Virus record (IMG/VR): IMGVR_UViG_2531839530_000005
Location: 1 to 40,441 of that record
Length of the DNA: 40,441 nt
Origin: a virus
Taxonomy: Duplodnaviria > Heunggongvirae > Uroviricota > Caudoviricetes
Strand: one strand, 5' to 3'
Part shown: in pieces, positions 30,445-33,568 of the stretch
Position numbering within the stretch: the first letter of the stretch is position 1
How the letters are laid out: each line of letters opens with the position of its first letter
The notes under the pieces: model-generated
Seen by the model: the letters and a program-made list of their open reading frames with translations, nothing else
The model's database searches: none
Told to the model about the DNA's origin: nothing
Translations under genes and position numbers: made by a program

Positions 30445-31239
30445 TTACCCCCTGAAGCCTGGCGGGATCGCACTGTCCGGCAACGAGACGGTGTTAACCT
30501 GTCGGAGCAACGTCTCAGGCCGAACACCTTTCGGTGCGAACAAGCCCTGGTATTCATTGGCGATGCTGTGTCGAATCACCTGCTCAGGTGTAAAACCCTG
30601 CTGACGGAATTTTTCCAGTTCCCGTATCGCCCCGTTAGCGCCCTGCTCCGTTCGAATCGGTTTTCGCAATGCCTGTCTGAACCGGACCCACTCATGCCAG
30701 AGTGTTTCCGGCAACCAATCAGGCAGCTCAATAGCCTCCGGCTCGAATTTTTTAGACGCTCGTTTTTGGCGAGGGGGATTTAGGGGGAGATCAGTATTTA
30801 GATCTTCCTCTTCCTCTTCCTCTTCCTCTGGTAACGCTTTTTGATCCGTTTGTGTAACGCTGGCAGCGTTACCTTTTCGTTTCAGTTCGCGTATTTTTGT
30901 AACTCGCTCGTTTGTAACCGCCCGTTTTTTAGAGCTTTTTCCGTTATGACGTTCAAAGTTAGGTAGAGAAAGCCCAACGTCATTTTCGACCAGCCATCCA
31001 ACCTGAATTAACGCATCAGCAAAACCAGCCATAAAAGTGATGCGATCTATTGCACTTTTTGTAACGCCGCGAGCGTTACAATCTGCATTACCGTCTATCA
31101 TTTGTTGATCCGCCCATGCCCAGAAGCGAATAACCTTCCCTAATGCGGCATCTGGATCAATATTCAGAATCTCAGCAAGCCTGAATATTTCCGGCTTATC
31201 CGGCGTAATAACCTCGAGCTTTATCCAGTTTGAAGCCAT
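30445..31239 (-). CDS. Replication initiation protein (lambda O / YdaU-like) with internal poly-Glu linker
   Basis: Position upstream of DnaC-like gene; palindromic sites within coding sequence; EEEEEEEED encoded by GAAGAG repeat. Confidence 0.5.
   Translation of the reverse strand: MASNWIKLEVITPDKPEIFRLAEILNIDPDAALGKVIRFWAWADQQMIDGNADCNARGVTKSAIDRITFMAGFADALIQVGWLVENDVGLSLPNFERHNGKSSKKRAVTNERVTKIRELKRKGNAASVTQTDQKALPEEEEEEEEDLNTDLPLNPPRQKRASKKFEPEAIELPDWLPETLWHEWVRFRQALRKPIRTEQGANGAIRELEKFRQQGFTPEQVIRHSIANEYQGLFAPKGVRPETLLRQVNTVSLPDSAIPPGFRG
30854..30872. repeat. 19-bp palindrome GTAACGC-TGGCA-GCGTTAC (copy 1)
   Basis: Perfect 7-bp arms; inside replication gene. Confidence 0.6.
31061..31079. 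repeat. 19-bp palindrome GTAACGC-CGCGA-GCGTTAC (copy 2)
   Basis: Perfect 7-bp arms; inside replication gene. Confidence 0.6.
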
Positions 31240-31252
31240 TTGTTTTCACCTT

Positions 31253-31271
31253 GTAACGCTCGCAGCGTTAC
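31253..31271. repeat. 19-bp palindrome GTAACGC-TCGCA-GCGTTAC (copy 3)
   Basis: Perfect 7-bp arms; just upstream of replication gene start. Confidence 0.6.
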
Positions 31272-31316
31272 ATTTAACTGATACCGAACAAAACAATCCG
31301 GCACGATTAATTTCAA

Positions 31317-31739
31317 TCAATGCACTACGACAGAATCGCCGGGCGACCCACCACCGCTGAAATGTGCTTTCCGGTAAACGGCCTGGACTGCATCATCATG
31401 CGCATCAATTGCCGTACTCAACGCTTCCTGCGCCGCCAGTAATGCACGGCGCTCCAGGGTATCGAAGATGCAGATTCGGTGACGCAGCTCGCGCGGAAGA
31501 ATTGCCAGAACCGCAGGGATCAGTTTCTGAATTTTTTCCCTTTGCGCTTTCGTTTCACCTTTCAACCAACGGTGATAGATATTCTGCTGATTGTTCCAGT
31601 CCTTGCCTGGTACAAGGGGCAATTCGCCGCCCCCCTGGCGCAGATATTCTTCAGTAATTGCGTTAGCGACCCACGCCTGCCCTTTTTCGGCTGCCAGGGC
31701 TAACAACACTGATTCGATGTGCTCATGCCTGATTTTCAT
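31317..31739 (-). CDS. YdaT-like protein (CII-type regulator analogue of Rac prophage)
   Basis: 140-aa ORF recalled as near-identical to Rac YdaT (MKIRHEHIESVLLALAAEKGQAWVANAITEEYLRQGGGELPL...). Confidence 0.55.
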   Translation of the reverse strand: MKIRHEHIESVLLALAAEKGQAWVANAITEEYLRQGGGELPLVPGKDWNNQQNIYHRWLKGETKAQREKIQKLIPAVLAILPRELRHRICIFDTLERRALLAAQEALSTAIDAHDDAVQAVYRKAHFSGGGSPGDSVVVH

Positions 31740-31978
31740 GAATCAACCGCTCCTATGCTGTTTTCGCTATGCTTACCGCCTGGGGGGAATACATCGTCAA
31801 GTCCACAATGAGCGCCAAGCCGATTAAGGGTAGAAACAATTTTTCTGCACTCCTCTAGTCCAGGGGTACGAAAATTTGCTTCGTAATTTGCCAGTCGGCT
31901 TTGTATCCACCCTAACTGAACAGCAAGTTGTCTTTGAGACAGCCCAAGCTGTTTTCGATATGTTGAAATTTTGTTCAT
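31736..31978 (-). CDS. YdaS-like Cro-type HTH regulator
   Basis: HTH LGLSQRQLAVQLGWIQSRLANYE; divergent from repressor; SD GGAGG. Confidence 0.6.
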   Translation of the reverse strand: MNKISTYRKQLGLSQRQLAVQLGWIQSRLANYEANFRTPGLEECRKIVSTLNRLGAHCGLDDVFPPGGKHSENSIGAVDS

Positions 31979-32074
31979 TGAAAACCTCCGATGACAATTT
32001 TAAACACATCTTGTGTTATATGGTCAAGCTGTTTTGTGTTTTATGTAAATCACGATTCGTGATACAAGGATGCA
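31979..32074. promoter_or_regulatory. Divergent immunity promoter/operator region
   Basis: Palindromes AACACATCTTGTGTT (32003-32017) and ATCACGATTCGTGAT (32049-32063) between divergent regulator genes. Confidence 0.45.
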
Positions 32075-32494
32075 ATGGAAAAAGAAAACGAAAAAATTGC
32101 CGCTAGTAGGCTCAATGACAAAATTGCAATGCGTCTTAAAGAGCGCAGGCAGAAGCTTGGTTTATCTCAAGGAAAACTTGCTGAAATCTGCGGATGGACG
32201 CAATCGCGTATAGGTAACTATGAGGCGGGCAGCAGAAATGTTGGAGTGCATGACGCTGTCGTATTGGGAAAGGCTCTTGGCATATCTCCTCCTGAGCTCC
32301 TCTTTGGAGAACAGGAATCTTCTGAATTGTGGTTAAATGAATCCCAACGAAAACTTCTTGAGTTGTTTAACCAGCTACCGGGCTCAGAACAACAACGAAT
32401 GATTGAGCTATTTGAAGTCCGGCTAAAAGAAATCGATGAGTATGTAGAAAAATATTTGAGAGGCAGGCTTAAAGATAATCCCCCACCGGAGTAA
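32075..32494 (+). CDS. Prophage repressor (RacR/CI-like, XRE HTH)
   Basis: HTH LGLSQGKLAEICGWTQSRIGNYEAG; divergent from cro-like gene. Confidence 0.7.
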   Translation: MEKENEKIAASRLNDKIAMRLKERRQKLGLSQGKLAEICGWTQSRIGNYEAGSRNVGVHDAVVLGKALGISPPELLFGEQESSELWLNESQRKLLELFNQLPGSEQQRMIELFEVRLKEIDEYVEKYLRGRLKDNPPPE

Positions 32495-32523
32495 TGATCT
32501 TGCTATCACAGTAATATGCCAAT

Positions 32524-32549
32524 CAGCCCGCTATCAGCGGGCTTTTTTT
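32524..32549 (+). terminator. Rho-independent terminator after repressor gene
   Basis: Stem GCCCGC / GCGGGC with loop TATCA followed by T7. Confidence 0.5.
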
Positions 32550-32578
32550 GTACCATCATCATATGACACCCACCACAA

Positions 32579-32620
32579 AACACATTTCGTGTTGACACAA
32601 GAAAACACATTGTGTTTAAT
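32579..32620 (+). promoter_or_regulatory. pL-like early-left promoter (-35 TTGACA, -10 TTTAAT) flanked by AACAC-N-GTGTT operators
   Basis: TTGACA at 32592-32597, 17-nt spacer, TTTAAT at 32615-32620; palindromes at 32579-32593 and 32603-32617. Confidence 0.45.
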
Positions 32621-32794
32621 AAGCATATCCAAACAACGCCCCACCAGAGAACGGCAGGACAATACCTCGAGTTATCCAGCCACTGAACAGGGCTAAGTAG
32701 CCAGCCTGAGGCATACGAACATGACGGCAGTTGTTGATTGATACAAAGCGCAGTAGATAAAACGTTCCGCCACCCGGCGTTAAGGGGAAAAAAG

Positions 32795-33013
32795 ATGGTT
32801 GGTGAAGATCTGGTTGTTATTAACGGTCAATTGTGCAGCAAAGATGTGGCAGCCATGCTTATTAGCAAGGTTCTTCCAACTGTGCTGGATGTCATTGCAG
32901 AAAAAGTAAAGGCTGGTCGTCCAGACAAGGAAGTTGAAGAGGCGGCAAAAACAGTTGTTCATGCCGCTACAGAAGCAATTATTTTGAAGAGCCTAGTTTC
33001 GCCCAAGCCTTAA
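32795..33013 (+). CDS. Hypothetical early protein (72 aa)
   Basis: SD AAGGGG before ATG; first gene after pL-like promoter. Confidence 0.35.
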   Translation: MVGEDLVVINGQLCSKDVAAMLISKVLPTVLDVIAEKVKAGRPDKEVEEAAKTVVHAATEAIILKSLVSPKP

Positions 33014-33173
33014 GTGAATCGGCGCTTTTTTTAGCATCACGTTCATTGAGTAGTGACAAAAACTCATTCTCAGCATTCTCGATTTCCGAGAAAAATTCTT
33101 GATGAGTTGTTTCTCGCTGCGATCTGATGCTGAAAGCTAAAGCAAGTAGCCAGGCTTTGTCTTTATTATCCAT
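32979..33173 (-). CDS. Hypothetical small protein on opposite strand to early-left operon
   Basis: 64-aa ORF with plausible SD. Confidence 0.3.
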   Translation of the reverse strand: MDNKDKAWLLALAFSIRSQRETTHQEFFSEIENAENEFLSLLNERDAKKSADSLKAWAKLGSSK

Positions 33174-33568
33174 CGGAATACCTTATTACTGGTTGTGTGA
33201 GAACTCCAGTATACCACCGAGCCTGAAGTGGTAAAAAGACAGGCGCACAACACGAAGGCGCATTTCCGGTATTCATAAAGAGTCGGTCTTGTCTGTTAAA
33301 TTTAAATGGTGGGAGTGCGCCTCCGGTTGTAAATAACGACATTGCTATGTGTAGTCTTTGGCGGCATCAGTTCTACTCCGTGGCTGCCCTGTCGCCCCTT
33401 TTTAAAGTGAATTTTGTGATGCGGTGAATGCGGCTAAGCGCACGCGGCACAGTTAAAAGCATCAGTGTTATGGGTGGATTATCCGGCGTTAATTGTTAAC
33501 TGGTTAACGTCACCTGGAGGCACCAGGCACCGCATCGACAAAATTCATTTGTAAAAATGGAGATAATT

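What the first reader, a model, noticed from the sequence alone, without database searches (positions are those of the whole stretch)
31979..32620. Shared operator palindromes at both early promoters of the immunity region
AACAC-N-GTGTT palindromes occur in the divergent region between the repressor and cro-like genes (32003-32017), and twice around a pL-like promoter downstream of the repressor terminator (32579-32593 and 32603-32617, flanking -35 TTGACA and -10 TTTAAT). A different palindrome, ATCACGATTCGTGAT (32049-32063), sits next to the repressor start. This suggests two distinct DNA-binding specificities, for example repressor and Cro/CII-like.
Basis: seen in the sequence. Interest (0 to 1): 0.45.

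Follow-up and report, generated by a model that had tools for sequence, protein, structure and literature searches.

The report
Prophage immunity-switch operators, right and left
These short palindromes are the operator sites of a lambda-style on/off switch in a Rac-like E. coli prophage; this is an ordinary arrangement, though the operator sequence of this immunity type does not seem to have been described.

Summary
The palindromes are real, non-random and conserved. Exact AWCAC-N5-GTGWT occurs three times in 40 kb (0.19 expected), and all three copies flank the repressor gene. Across 35 haplotypes of the divergent region, none of 25 arm positions varies, against 42 of 71 other positions.

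They form a lambda-like layout:
- OR1 (32003-17), OR2 (half-site, 32026-40) and OR3 (32049-63) have centres 23 bp apart, between a cro-like gene and a small repressor gene.
- OL2 (32579-93) and OL1 (32602-16) sit on a TTGACA-17-TTTAAT promoter with geometry that mirrors P_R.

In relatives with different repressor recognition helices, the arms change together at OR and OL (AACAC, TTCAC, GACAC).

- The third palindrome has N3 spacing, and that reading is not conserved. The conserved unit is AAAAC-N5-GTGTT.
- The repressor is not RacR-like and the cro-like protein is not YdaS-like. The repressor is DicA/Gifsy-type, and its DNA-binding domain is close to that of phage mEp213 cI.
- ATCAC-N5-GTGAT sits in the OR3 position of the same operator family. 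It may be the site Cro prefers.

YdaT has its own box at 31729-46. This is a new member of a known kind, of low to moderate interest.

The parts
31317..31739 (-). ydaT, a CII-like activator
   Evidence: Pfam PF06254. PHROG CII-like activator. 94% identical to K-12 Rac YdaT.
31729..31746 (.). YdaT box. Plus strand reads cTGATTttcatgAATCAA; minus strand reads TTGATTcatgaaAATCAg. It spans the ydaT ATG.
   Evidence: One mismatch to TTGATT-N6-AATCAA. Same CATGAA spacer as the footprinted Rac box (PMC11879457). Binding here is inferred.
31736..31978 (-). cro-like gene (80 aa, HTH_3)
   Evidence: Pfam HTH_3. 56% identical to mEp213 Cro. No similarity to YdaS. Its DNA-binding domain is 45% identical to the repressor's.
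31999..32027 (-). P_R-like promoter for cro-ydaT and the replication genes. -35 TTGACC at 32027->32022; -10 TTTAAA at 32004->31999; 17-bp spacer.
   Evidence: Read from the sequence. GTCAA is present at this position in all related loci. Not mapped experimentally.
32003..32017 (.). OR1, AACACatcttGTGTT. It lies between the -35 and -10 of P_R.
   Evidence: arms invariant, spacer variable. Same position (-72/-73 from the repressor ATG) in relatives.
32026..32040 (.). OR2, a half-site (aagctgttttGTGTT). It overlaps the P_R -35 by 2 bp. Its centre is 23 bp from OR1 and from OR3.
   Evidence: Right arm invariant and left part variable in 35 haplotypes. Equivalent half-sites occur in relatives.
32049..32063 (.). 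OR3, ATCACgattcGTGAT. It overlaps the predicted P_RM -10.
   Evidence: Arms invariant, with spacer gattc, gaatc or gcatc in relatives. A site at -26/-27 from the repressor ATG occurs in every related locus.
32060..32068 (+). Predicted P_RM extended -10 (TGaTACAAG). It would start transcription at or next to the repressor ATG, giving a leaderless mRNA.
   Evidence: TGnTAnnnn lies 6-7 nt before the ATG in all related loci. Analogy to lambda cI and PaaR2 (PMC8630535). Inferred only.
32075..32494 (+). Immunity repressor (139 aa): an N-terminal HTH_3 domain plus a DicA-like C-terminal region, with no peptidase domain
   Evidence: Pfam. 29% identity to DicA over its full length, E = 2e-15. DNA-binding domain 58% identical to mEp213 cI. 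Not RacR-like.
32525..32551 (+). Intrinsic terminator of the repressor transcript
   Evidence: A hairpin of different sequence sits at the same place in Salmonella.
32579..32593 (.). OL2, AACACatttcGTGTT. It overlaps the P_L -35 by 2 bp.
   Evidence: arms invariant in 45 haplotypes. Arms co-vary with OR1 in relatives.
32592..32620 (+). P_L-like promoter, TTGACA-17-TTTAAT. It drives orf72, DicF, kilR, ydaE, recET, ralR and xis-int.
   Evidence: Sequence. Hexamers conserved. Downstream genes.
32602..32616 (.). OL1, AAAACacattGTGTT (N5 frame, one mismatch). It lies between the -35 and -10 of P_L, mirroring OR1 at P_R.
   Evidence: The N5-frame arms are kept while the N3-frame arm varies. Its centre is 23 bp from OL2.

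Best explanation
The window carries a Rac-like lambdoid prophage, identical to one in E. coli strain 300709. The palindromes are the operators of its immunity switch.

Layout:
- A small non-cleavable repressor (139 aa, DicA/Gifsy type) and a divergent Cro-like protein (80 aa) have homologous DNA-binding domains with nearly the same recognition helix (TQSRIGNYE and IQSRLANYE).
- As dimers they recognise 15-bp sites of the form NNCAC-N5-GTGNN.
- OR1, OR2 and OR3 have centres 23 bp apart. OR1 and OR2 cover the leftward P_R promoter (cro, ydaT, replication genes). OR3 covers the -10 of the rightward repressor promoter.
- OL2 and OL1 cover the P_L promoter downstream of the repressor terminator, with geometry that mirrors OR2 and OR1.

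Proposed mechanism:
- In the lysogen, repressor fills the AACAC/GTGTT sites. The strong site in each pair probably helps the adjacent half-site cooperatively.
- This shuts off P_R and P_L, and so silences kilR, DicF and recET.
- At high concentration the repressor also fills OR3 and limits its own synthesis.
- Cro acts in the opposite order. It most likely prefers OR3 (ATCAC/GTGAT) and shuts off repressor synthesis.
- YdaT, the CII analogue, works from its own box at the cro/ydaT junction, not from these palindromes.

Status of each step:
- Shown here: presence, non-randomness, conservation, geometry, co-variation of the sites with the repressor, and homology of the proteins.
- Inferred: who binds where, the order of filling, cooperativity, and the leaderless P_RM transcript.
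For: Non-randomness and conservation:
- Three exact sites against 0.19 expected.
- Arms 0/25 variable against 42/71 for other intergenic positions, p = 2e-8, with spacers free to change.

Geometry:
- OR centres lie at 32010, 32033 and 32056. OL centres lie at 32586 and 32609.
- At both P_R and P_L there is a 4-nt gap after the -35, a 2-nt overlap with the -10, and a second site that overlaps the -35 by 2 nt.

Co-variation across about 25 loci from Salmonella, Citrobacter, Klebsiella, Kluyvera, Kosakonia, Enterobacter, Pectobacterium and several phages:
- Repressor helix [TA]QSRIGNYE goes with AACAC/GTGTT at OR1 and OL.
- SG[SA][SP]R[IVL]ANYE goes with TTCAC or CTCAC.
- ATASRVGNYE goes with GACAC/GTGTC.

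Linkage of sites to the recognition helix:
- Against an E. coli prophage with another cassette, identity is 98% up to 31978.
- It breaks over 31979-32203, which is OR plus the repressor's DNA-binding domain through the recognition helix.

Homology:
- The repressor's DNA-binding domain is 58% identical to mEp213 cI, and Cro is 56% identical to mEp213 Cro.
- mEp213 has three such sites at OR and three at OL.
- The repressor's DNA-binding domain also matches the 434 repressor. 434 operators are ACAA-N6-TTGT (own knowledge).

Precedent:
- CP-933P (PMC8630535), Rac (PMC9638921) and Qin DicA/DicC (PMC10448788; operator-like repeats seen) have the same architecture.

Cro and OR3:
- The same Cro pairs with two cassettes that share only the OR3 type.
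- The variable 'n' of the OR3 arm GTGnT tracks the Cro helix: LANYE with A, LSNYE with G, and IGNYE with T in Pmp14, the one clear case.

YdaT:
- The YdaT box is at 31729-46 (PMC11879457, PMC9986795).
Against: - No binding or transcription data exist for this immunity type. I found no paper that describes these operators.
- OR2 and OL1 are only half-conserved. Their GTGTT arms abut promoter hexamers, so part of their conservation could reflect promoter constraints.
- The OR3 right arm overlaps the predicted P_RM -10. Its deviation from AACAC may be dictated by the promoter rather than by Cro.
- The helix-to-base correlation rests on few independent lineages. The Yersinia locus does not fit cleanly.
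- By analogy with 434, a Cro carrying Q-S-R should prefer ACAC just as the repressor does.
- No antirepressor gene or LexA box was found in the window, so how the switch is induced is unknown.
- In Rac, YdaT also footprints in the intergenic region (PMC11879457), so some YdaT binding near OR cannot be excluded.
Confidence: 0.85

Rival explanations
1. There is one specificity only. Repressor and Cro both prefer AACAC/GTGTT. OR3 (ATCAC/GTGAT) is simply a weakened site whose right arm is set by the P_RM extended -10. It serves as a low-affinity autoregulatory site, not a Cro-tuned one.
For: - Both proteins share Q-S-R at the start of the recognition helix.
- The OR3 right arm plus the next base forms TGnTA of the predicted -10 in every locus.
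- mEp213 and mEpX1 mix AACAC and ATCAC arms within single operators. This suggests A or T at that position is tolerated.
Against: - The left arm of OR3 mirrors the right arm (ATCAC/GTGAT), although only the right arm touches the promoter.
- The 'n' of TGnTA is free for the promoter, yet it tracks the Cro helix type.
- The same Cro works with a cassette whose operators are all TCAC-type.
Confidence: 0.35
2. ATCACGATTCGTGAT is the binding site of the CII-like YdaT protein.
For: - In Rac, YdaT footprints in the racR-ydaS intergenic region as well as at its box (PMC11879457).
- The palindrome lies next to the repressor start, where an activator or repressor of repressor synthesis could act.
Against: - YdaT here is 94% identical to Rac YdaT. 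Rac YdaT recognises ATGATT-N6-AATCAA, a 6-N6-6 site.
- A box with 11 of 12 matches lies at 31729-46.
- No match to the box with two or fewer mismatches occurs in the intergenic region.
- The OR3-position site changes with the repressor/Cro type in loci that carry YdaT-family genes.
- CP-933P YdaT does not bind the paaR2-ydaS region (PMC11879457).
Confidence: 0.05
3. The palindromes are chance matches in AT-rich intergenic DNA, or merely parts of promoters with no operator role.
For: - With one mismatch allowed, the pattern is not enriched over the whole window (7 hits against 4.7 expected).
- Several arms abut promoter hexamers.
Against: - Exact sites: 3 against 0.19 expected.
- Arms are invariant while spacers and flanks vary, p = 2e-8.
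- Arms co-vary at two loci 570 bp apart, in step with the repressor helix.
Confidence: 0.02

Closest known systems
Lambdoid coliphage mEp213 immunity region (cI, Cro, OR, OL)
   Same: - The cI N-terminal DNA-binding domain is 58% identical and Cro is 56% identical.
- Operators belong to the same A[A/T]CAC-N5-GTG[A/T]T family: three at OR and three at OL. One overlaps a TTGACA -35, as here.
   Different: - mEp213 cI carries a LexA-type cleavable C-terminal domain (213 aa). The repressor here has a short DicA-like C-terminus (139 aa).
- mEp213 uses lambda-type CII and N, where this prophage uses YdaT and has no N.
- mEp213 operators are AACAC/ATCAC hybrids.
Qin prophage DicA/DicC and dicBp (E. 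coli K-12); Gifsy GfoR/GtgR-type small repressors
   Same: - The repressor is 29% identical to DicA over its full length, including the C-terminal LELFxxLPxSEQ motif.
- Both are small and lack a cleavage domain.
- The repressor gene is followed by a repressed promoter that drives an operon containing DicF.
- Palindromic repeats occur in both the divergent region and downstream of dicA.
   Different: - The recognition helix and operators differ (Qin has TGTTAG...CTAACA-like repeats).
- DicC is unrelated to this Cro.
- Qin has the antirepressor Rem (PMC10448788) and Gifsy phages have LexA-controlled antirepressors (PMC3121763). None was recognised here.
CP-933P PaaR2/YdaS/YdaT switch (E. coli O157:H7)
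   Same: - A cI-like and a Cro-like regulator compete for shared operators at OR.
- Both also control a P_L-like promoter with matching OL sites.
- YdaT acts from a TTGATT-N6-AATCAA box at the cro/ydaT junction.
- The repressor mRNA is leaderless (PMC8630535, PMC9986795).
   Different: - The operator consensus is different (GTTTAGTAA palindromes), and it is absent from 31979-32074.
- paaR2 is followed by the paaA2-parE2 toxin-antitoxin genes, whereas here a terminator follows.
- Homology of PaaR2 and CP-933P YdaS to the proteins here was not tested.
K-12 Rac RacR/YdaS/YdaT
   Same: - Same prophage backbone: ydaT (94% identity), ydaV, kilR, ydaE, recET and ralR.
- The YdaT box has an identical spacer.
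- The overall divergent layout has three operators.
   Different: - RacR and YdaS are not homologous to the repressor and Cro here.
- RacR operators are (T/A)TAGGC-n3-GCCTA(T/A) (PMC9638921).
Phage 434 repressor/Cro and their operators
   Same: - Same HTH_3 fold, with recognition-helix pattern T-Q-x-x-I-x-x-x-E-x-G (E = 6.5e-4 to the 434 repressor).
- Repressor and Cro share the helix start and bind one family of sites with different preference order.
- The operator ACAA-N6-TTGT resembles ACAC-N5-GTGT (own knowledge).
   Different: - The site is 13/15 bp rather than 14 bp.
- Sequence similarity is distant.
- The 434 repressor is cleavable.

Membership tests
Lambda-type immunity region (OR between divergent repressor and cro genes, plus OL at P_L) | Divergently transcribed repressor and cro-like genes with DNA-binding domains | tested here: met
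   ORFs 32075-32494 (+) and 31736-31978 (-). Both match HTH_3.
Lambda-type immunity region (OR between divergent repressor and cro genes, plus OL at P_L) | Several related operator sites, about two helical turns apart, that overlap both divergent promoters | tested here: met
   Three sites with centres 23 bp apart. They overlap the P_R -35 and -10 and the predicted P_RM -10. The promoters themselves are predicted, not mapped.
Lambda-type immunity region (OR between divergent repressor and cro genes, plus OL at P_L) | The same operator type repeated at a second early promoter beyond the repressor gene | tested here: met
   OL2 and OL1 lie on TTGACA-17-TTTAAT. Arms co-vary with OR1 across relatives.
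Lambda-type immunity region (OR between divergent repressor and cro genes, plus OL at P_L) | Repressor and Cro both bind the operators, in opposite order of preference and with cooperativity | not testable with these tools
   Only indirect evidence: shared recognition-helix start, and the same Cro paired with two cassettes that share the OR3 type.
DicA/Gifsy-type small non-cleavable prophage repressors | [quoted passage not shown] | tested here: met
   139 aa. Pfam finds only HTH families. PMC3121763 and PMC10448788 define the class.
DicA/Gifsy-type small non-cleavable prophage repressors | Sequence homology to DicA, including the C-terminal region | tested here: met
   blastp against K-12 DicA: 29% identity over 129 aa, E = 2e-15. 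The C-terminal motif is invariant in the family alignment.
DicA/Gifsy-type small non-cleavable prophage repressors | A cognate antirepressor elsewhere in the prophage, often LexA-controlled | tested here: inconclusive
   No LexA box in the window. No antirepressor family among the small ORFs scanned. Only some ORFs were scanned, and such proteins are small and diverse.
   blastp E = 2.
   Absent from the 96-bp intergenic sequence as read. Consensus from PMC9638921.
   No blastp hit at E <= 10. The protein is instead 56% identical to mEp213 Cro.
YdaT (CII-analogue) family | PF06254 domain and homology to Rac YdaT | tested here: met
   Pfam E = 3.9e-11. 94% identity over 140 aa.
YdaT (CII-analogue) family | A TTGATT-N6-AATCAA box at the cro/ydaT junction | tested here: met
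   cTGATTttcatgAATCAA at 31729-46, one mismatch. The spacer is identical to that of Rac (PMC11879457). A single match at this stringency is not statistically unusual on its own (6 against 4.1 expected at two or fewer mismatches). The position is what matters.

The most novel reading that the evidence does not exclude
The immunity cassette (OR operators, the repressor's recognition helix and the OL operators) is exchanged between prophages without cro.
- One Cro protein therefore serves at least two heteroimmune repressor/operator sets.
- It can do so because OR3 is kept as a Cro-specific TCAC-N5-GTGAT site, distinct from the repressor's AACAC sites.
- In this window Cro would have essentially one good operator.
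- Prophages of different immunity that share this Cro could switch each other's repressor synthesis off in trans.
Probability: 0.35. Interest if true: 0.5.

Novelty: new member of a known kind. Interest (0 to 1): 0.3.

Why it matters
- The module is common. 153 of 5,426 complete E. coli genomes carry it, including O157:H7, O145, O121 and O55:H7 strains. Close relatives occur in Salmonella.
- It keeps the cell-division inhibitors KilR and DicF and the RecET recombinase silent.
- Knowing the operator code gives a simple way to assign immunity groups among Rac-like and Gifsy-like prophages. It also lets cross-immunity be predicted from sequence.
- If the Cro/OR3 idea holds, it offers a natural example of how a two-repressor switch tolerates module swapping.
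- Otherwise this is a textbook architecture and needs no new concept.

Tried and rejected
- RacR-like and YdaS-like labels: tested by blastp and rejected.
- N3-spaced reading of the third palindrome: rejected because it is not conserved.
- A third OL site 23 bp upstream of OL2 (about 32556-70): there is no match, and relatives have indels there.
- The tool's minus-strand promoter candidate TTGTCA-18-CAAAAT (31997->31968): rejected because it overlaps the cro start codon.
- LexA box and antirepressor search: nothing found.
- P_RE-like promoter inside cro reading towards the repressor: none was listed by the scan, so it is left open.
- IMG/VR scan for more diverse relatives: it returned only near-identical type-A loci. 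These were useful for conservation statistics but not for testing the helix-to-base code further.
- Idea that the conserved P_L leader is an HK022 put-like RNA: no HK022 hit, and only weak covariation (2 of 20 pairs).
- Rfam on 31200-33500: only DicF passes its threshold. The Trp_leader hit at 32464-32550 is sub-threshold and is just the terminator.
- Literature searches for these operators or for mEp213 immunity found nothing specific.
- No structure prediction was run, because it would not tell which protein binds which site.
Full report
**What the window is.** Window 31300-33100 is 100% identical to E. coli strain 300709 (NZ_CP025903.1). About 150 other complete E. coli genomes match it at 95-99%. 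The annotation around it is a Rac-like lambdoid prophage. To the left, on the minus strand, lie a cro-like gene, ydaT, a replication initiator and ydaV. To the right, on the plus strand, lie a repressor gene, a small ORF, kilR, ydaE, recE, recT, ralR, xis and int.

**Checking the observation.** Three of the four palindromes are exactly as described: AACACatcttGTGTT at 32003-17, AACACatttcGTGTT at 32579-93 and ATCACgattcGTGAT at 32049-63. The terminator (32525-43 plus a T-run) and the TTGACA-17-TTTAAT promoter (32592-97 and 32615-20) are also present. The fourth site, 32603-17, is AAACAC-att-GTGTTT, so its spacer is 3 bp, not 5 bp. In the 5-bp frame it reads AAAACacattGTGTT at 32602-16, with one mismatch.

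Exact AWCAC-N5-GTGWT occurs three times in 40,441 bp against 0.19 expected, and no shuffle out of 100 reached three. All three copies flank the repressor gene. With one mismatch allowed, the pattern is not enriched window-wide. The signal is therefore the exact, clustered sites.

**Conservation.**
- I collected 78 near relatives from IMG/VR plus E. coli and Salmonella loci.
- Among 35 distinct haplotypes of the 96-bp divergent region, none of the 25 arm positions varies. These are both arms of OR1, the right arm of OR2 and both arms of OR3. By contrast, 42 of the 71 remaining positions vary (Fisher p = 2e-8; for the four-sequence version).
- Spacers change freely: atctt, acctt, aattt or gattt in OR1, and gattc, gaatc or gcatc in OR3.
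- At OL, the OL2 arms are invariant in 45 haplotypes.
- At OL1, the right arm GTGTT and, in E. coli, the N5-frame left arm AAAAC are kept. The N3-frame 'AACAC' varies (AACGC, AACGT, AACAA, AACCA).

**Geometry.**
- The OR site centres lie at 32010, 32033 and 32056, 23 bp apart. The middle site (32026-40) is a half-site, with only GTGTT conserved.
- On the minus strand, P_R reads TTGACC (32027->22), 17 bp, then TTTAAA (32004->31999). OR1 starts 4 nt after the -35 and overlaps the -10 by 2 nt. OR2 overlaps the -35 by 2 nt.
- P_L has the same arrangement in mirror image: OL1 (32602-16) corresponds to OR1 and OL2 (32579-93) to OR2, with centres 23 bp apart.
- Each promoter therefore carries one perfect site and one degenerate site. 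This is what cooperative pairwise binding would need, but cooperativity is an inference.
- The OR3 right arm plus the next bases reads TGaTACAAG, an extended -10 ending 6 nt before the repressor ATG.
- The same TGnTAnnnn lies 6-7 nt before the ATG in every related locus. This predicts a leaderless repressor mRNA, as for lambda cI and PaaR2 (PMC8630535).
- With a start at 32075, OR2 would be centred at -42. I recall that as the position of lambda OR2 relative to P_RM (own knowledge). All of this is inference.

**The proteins.**
- The repressor (139 aa) has only an HTH_3 domain. It is 29% identical to Qin DicA over its full length, including the C-terminal LELFxxLPxSEQ motif (E = 2e-15).
- It therefore falls in the class of small non-cleavable DicA/Gifsy-type repressors (PMC3121763, PMC10448788).
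- Its DNA-binding domain (residues 12-80) is 58% identical to that of the cleavable cI of lambdoid phage mEp213. The Cro-like protein is 56% identical to mEp213 Cro.
- YdaT is 94% identical to Rac YdaT.
- The repressor and Cro DNA-binding domains are 45% identical to each other (E = 3e-10). Even their DNA forms a 30-nt, 83% inverted repeat (31921-50 with 32154-83). Their recognition helices read TQSRIGNYE and IQSRLANYE.

**Co-variation.** Relatives were fetched from genomes and phages. In every locus a CAC-N5-GTG site lies at about -73 and at -26 from the repressor ATG. Another follows the repressor terminator and overlaps a TTGAC -35. The outer two bases change with the repressor helix, and they change together at OR1 and OL:

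| Repressor recognition helix | Loci | Arms at OR1 and OL |
|---|---|---|
| [TA]QSRIGNYE | window, Salmonella, Citrobacter, Dryocola, Klebsiella, phage Chris1 | AACAC/GTGTT |
| SGSSRIANYE | Salmonella L028, phage vB_Apl-pPE4, E. coli PEC178 | TTCAC or CTCAC / GTGAG |
| SGA[PS]R[VL]ANYE | Kosakonia, Klebsiella, C. portucalensis | TTCAC/GTGAA |
| STSSRVANYE | Kluyvera L041 | TTCAC/GTGAA at OR1, CTCAC/GTGAG at OL |
| ATASRVGNYE | Pectobacterium, Enterobacter, Aeromonas phage pAEv1818 | GACAC/GTGTC |

mEp213 has three sites at OR and three at OL, and they mix AACAC and ATCAC arms.

Compared with an E. coli prophage that carries the SGSSR cassette, identity is 98% up to 31978. It then breaks over 31979-32203 and resumes at lower identity. 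That divergent stretch is the operators plus the repressor's DNA-binding domain through the recognition helix. This ties the sites to the repressor's recognition helix as firmly as sequence alone can.

**The 'different' palindrome.**
- ATCAC-N5-GTGAT occupies the OR3 position and shares core, frame and spacing with the other sites. It is a variant operator, not a separate kind of element.
- A YdaT role is unlikely. The experimentally defined YdaT box is 6-N6-6 (TTGATT-N6-AATCAA; PMC9986795, PMC11879457).
- A copy with one mismatch and the same CATGAA spacer as in Rac lies at 31729-46, over the ydaT ATG.

Whether OR3 is tuned to Cro is open, but the idea has support:
- The same Cro (98.8% identity) occurs with the SGSSR cassette. 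There every operator is TCAC-type, and the only operator type shared with this window is OR3, xTCAC-N5-GTGAT.
- The left arm of OR3 mirrors the right arm, although only the right arm touches the promoter.
- Across the loci the free base of GTGnT at OR3 tracks the Cro helix: LANYE with A, LSNYE with G, and IGNYE with T in Pmp14, the one clear case.

Points against the idea:
- Both proteins share Q-S-R.
- The independent lineages are few.
- One Yersinia locus is degenerate.

I put about 0.5-0.6 on Cro preferring OR3 and about 0.35 on the plain weak-site reading.

**Comparison with known systems.** The architecture matches lambda, 434, CP-933P (PMC8630535), Rac (PMC9638921) and Qin (PMC10448788). 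What is specific here is the operator sequence family. A mEp213-type DNA-binding module is also combined with a DicA-type C-terminus on a Rac backbone. I found no paper describing these operators in the searchable library. No LexA box or recognisable antirepressor lies in the window, so the induction route is unknown.

**Verdict.**
- The operator interpretation is well supported.
- The 'two specificities' idea survives only in a refined form, as Cro against repressor preference within one site family.
- The protein labels are two-thirds wrong.
- This is a new member of a known kind, with interest about 0.3.

Noticed in passing
window 33346-33397 (+): A DicF small-RNA homologue (Rfam RF00039, 55.3 bits against a gathering score of 48, E = 8e-11). 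It lies in the P_L operon between the first small ORF and kilR. The repressor here would therefore silence DicF as DicA does in Qin.
   Followed up: partly
window 31729-31746: A YdaT box (cTGATTttcatgAATCAA) over the ydaT start codon, with the same spacer as the footprinted Rac box. A weaker match (two mismatches) lies at 31303-31320, at the end of ydaT. No P_RE-like promoter inside cro was found by the simple scan.
   Followed up: partly
window 31921-31950 and 32154-32183: A 30-nt inverted repeat, 83% complementary. It is the DNA that encodes the first helix of the DNA-binding domain in both cro (QLGLSQRQLA) and the repressor (KLGLSQGKLA). The two divergent genes are paralogous even at the DNA level, which suggests duplication or gene conversion.
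   Followed up: partly
window 31979-32203 and about 32560-32622; L033, L031, L028: Mosaic boundary. An alternative immunity cassette (repressor 64% identical, TTCAC/CTCAC operators) replaces OR, the repressor's DNA-binding domain and the OL sites. The same cro, ydaT and P_L leader are kept. The left junction is exactly at the cro ATG (31978/31979). Nine of 162 E. coli genomes with this cro carry another cassette.
   Followed up: partly
window 32623-32794; L002, L004, L006, L009, L024, L026, L040, L042 downstream of P_L: A conserved transcribed leader follows P_L. Its blocks (AGTAGC, GGCATACGAA, CGCAGCAG, ACGTTCCGCC...GGCG) are shared across several genera and different immunity types. Predicted hairpins show little covariation, there is no Rfam family and no HK022 put match. 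Its function is unknown; it could be an antitermination or processing signal.
   Followed up: partly
L030 (Aeromonas phage pAEv1818), 94-108 nt after the repressor stop: ATCACtattcGTGAT sits 23 bp from a GACAC/GTGTC site at OL in a phage whose repressor sites are GACAC-type. The ATCAC palindrome therefore recurs as a second site type in another immunity group.
   Followed up: no
window 32979-33173 (-) and 32795-33013 (+): Two small conserved ORFs of unknown function (PHROG 22868 and 23495) overlap convergently at their 3' ends, just downstream of P_L.
   Followed up: no
L031 (PP818812.1, 'Actinobacillus phage vB_Apl-pPE4'): This record shares 95-100% identical segments with E. coli Rac-like prophages: ydaT, cro and the P_L leader. 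The host assignment to Actinobacillus looks doubtful.
   Followed up: no
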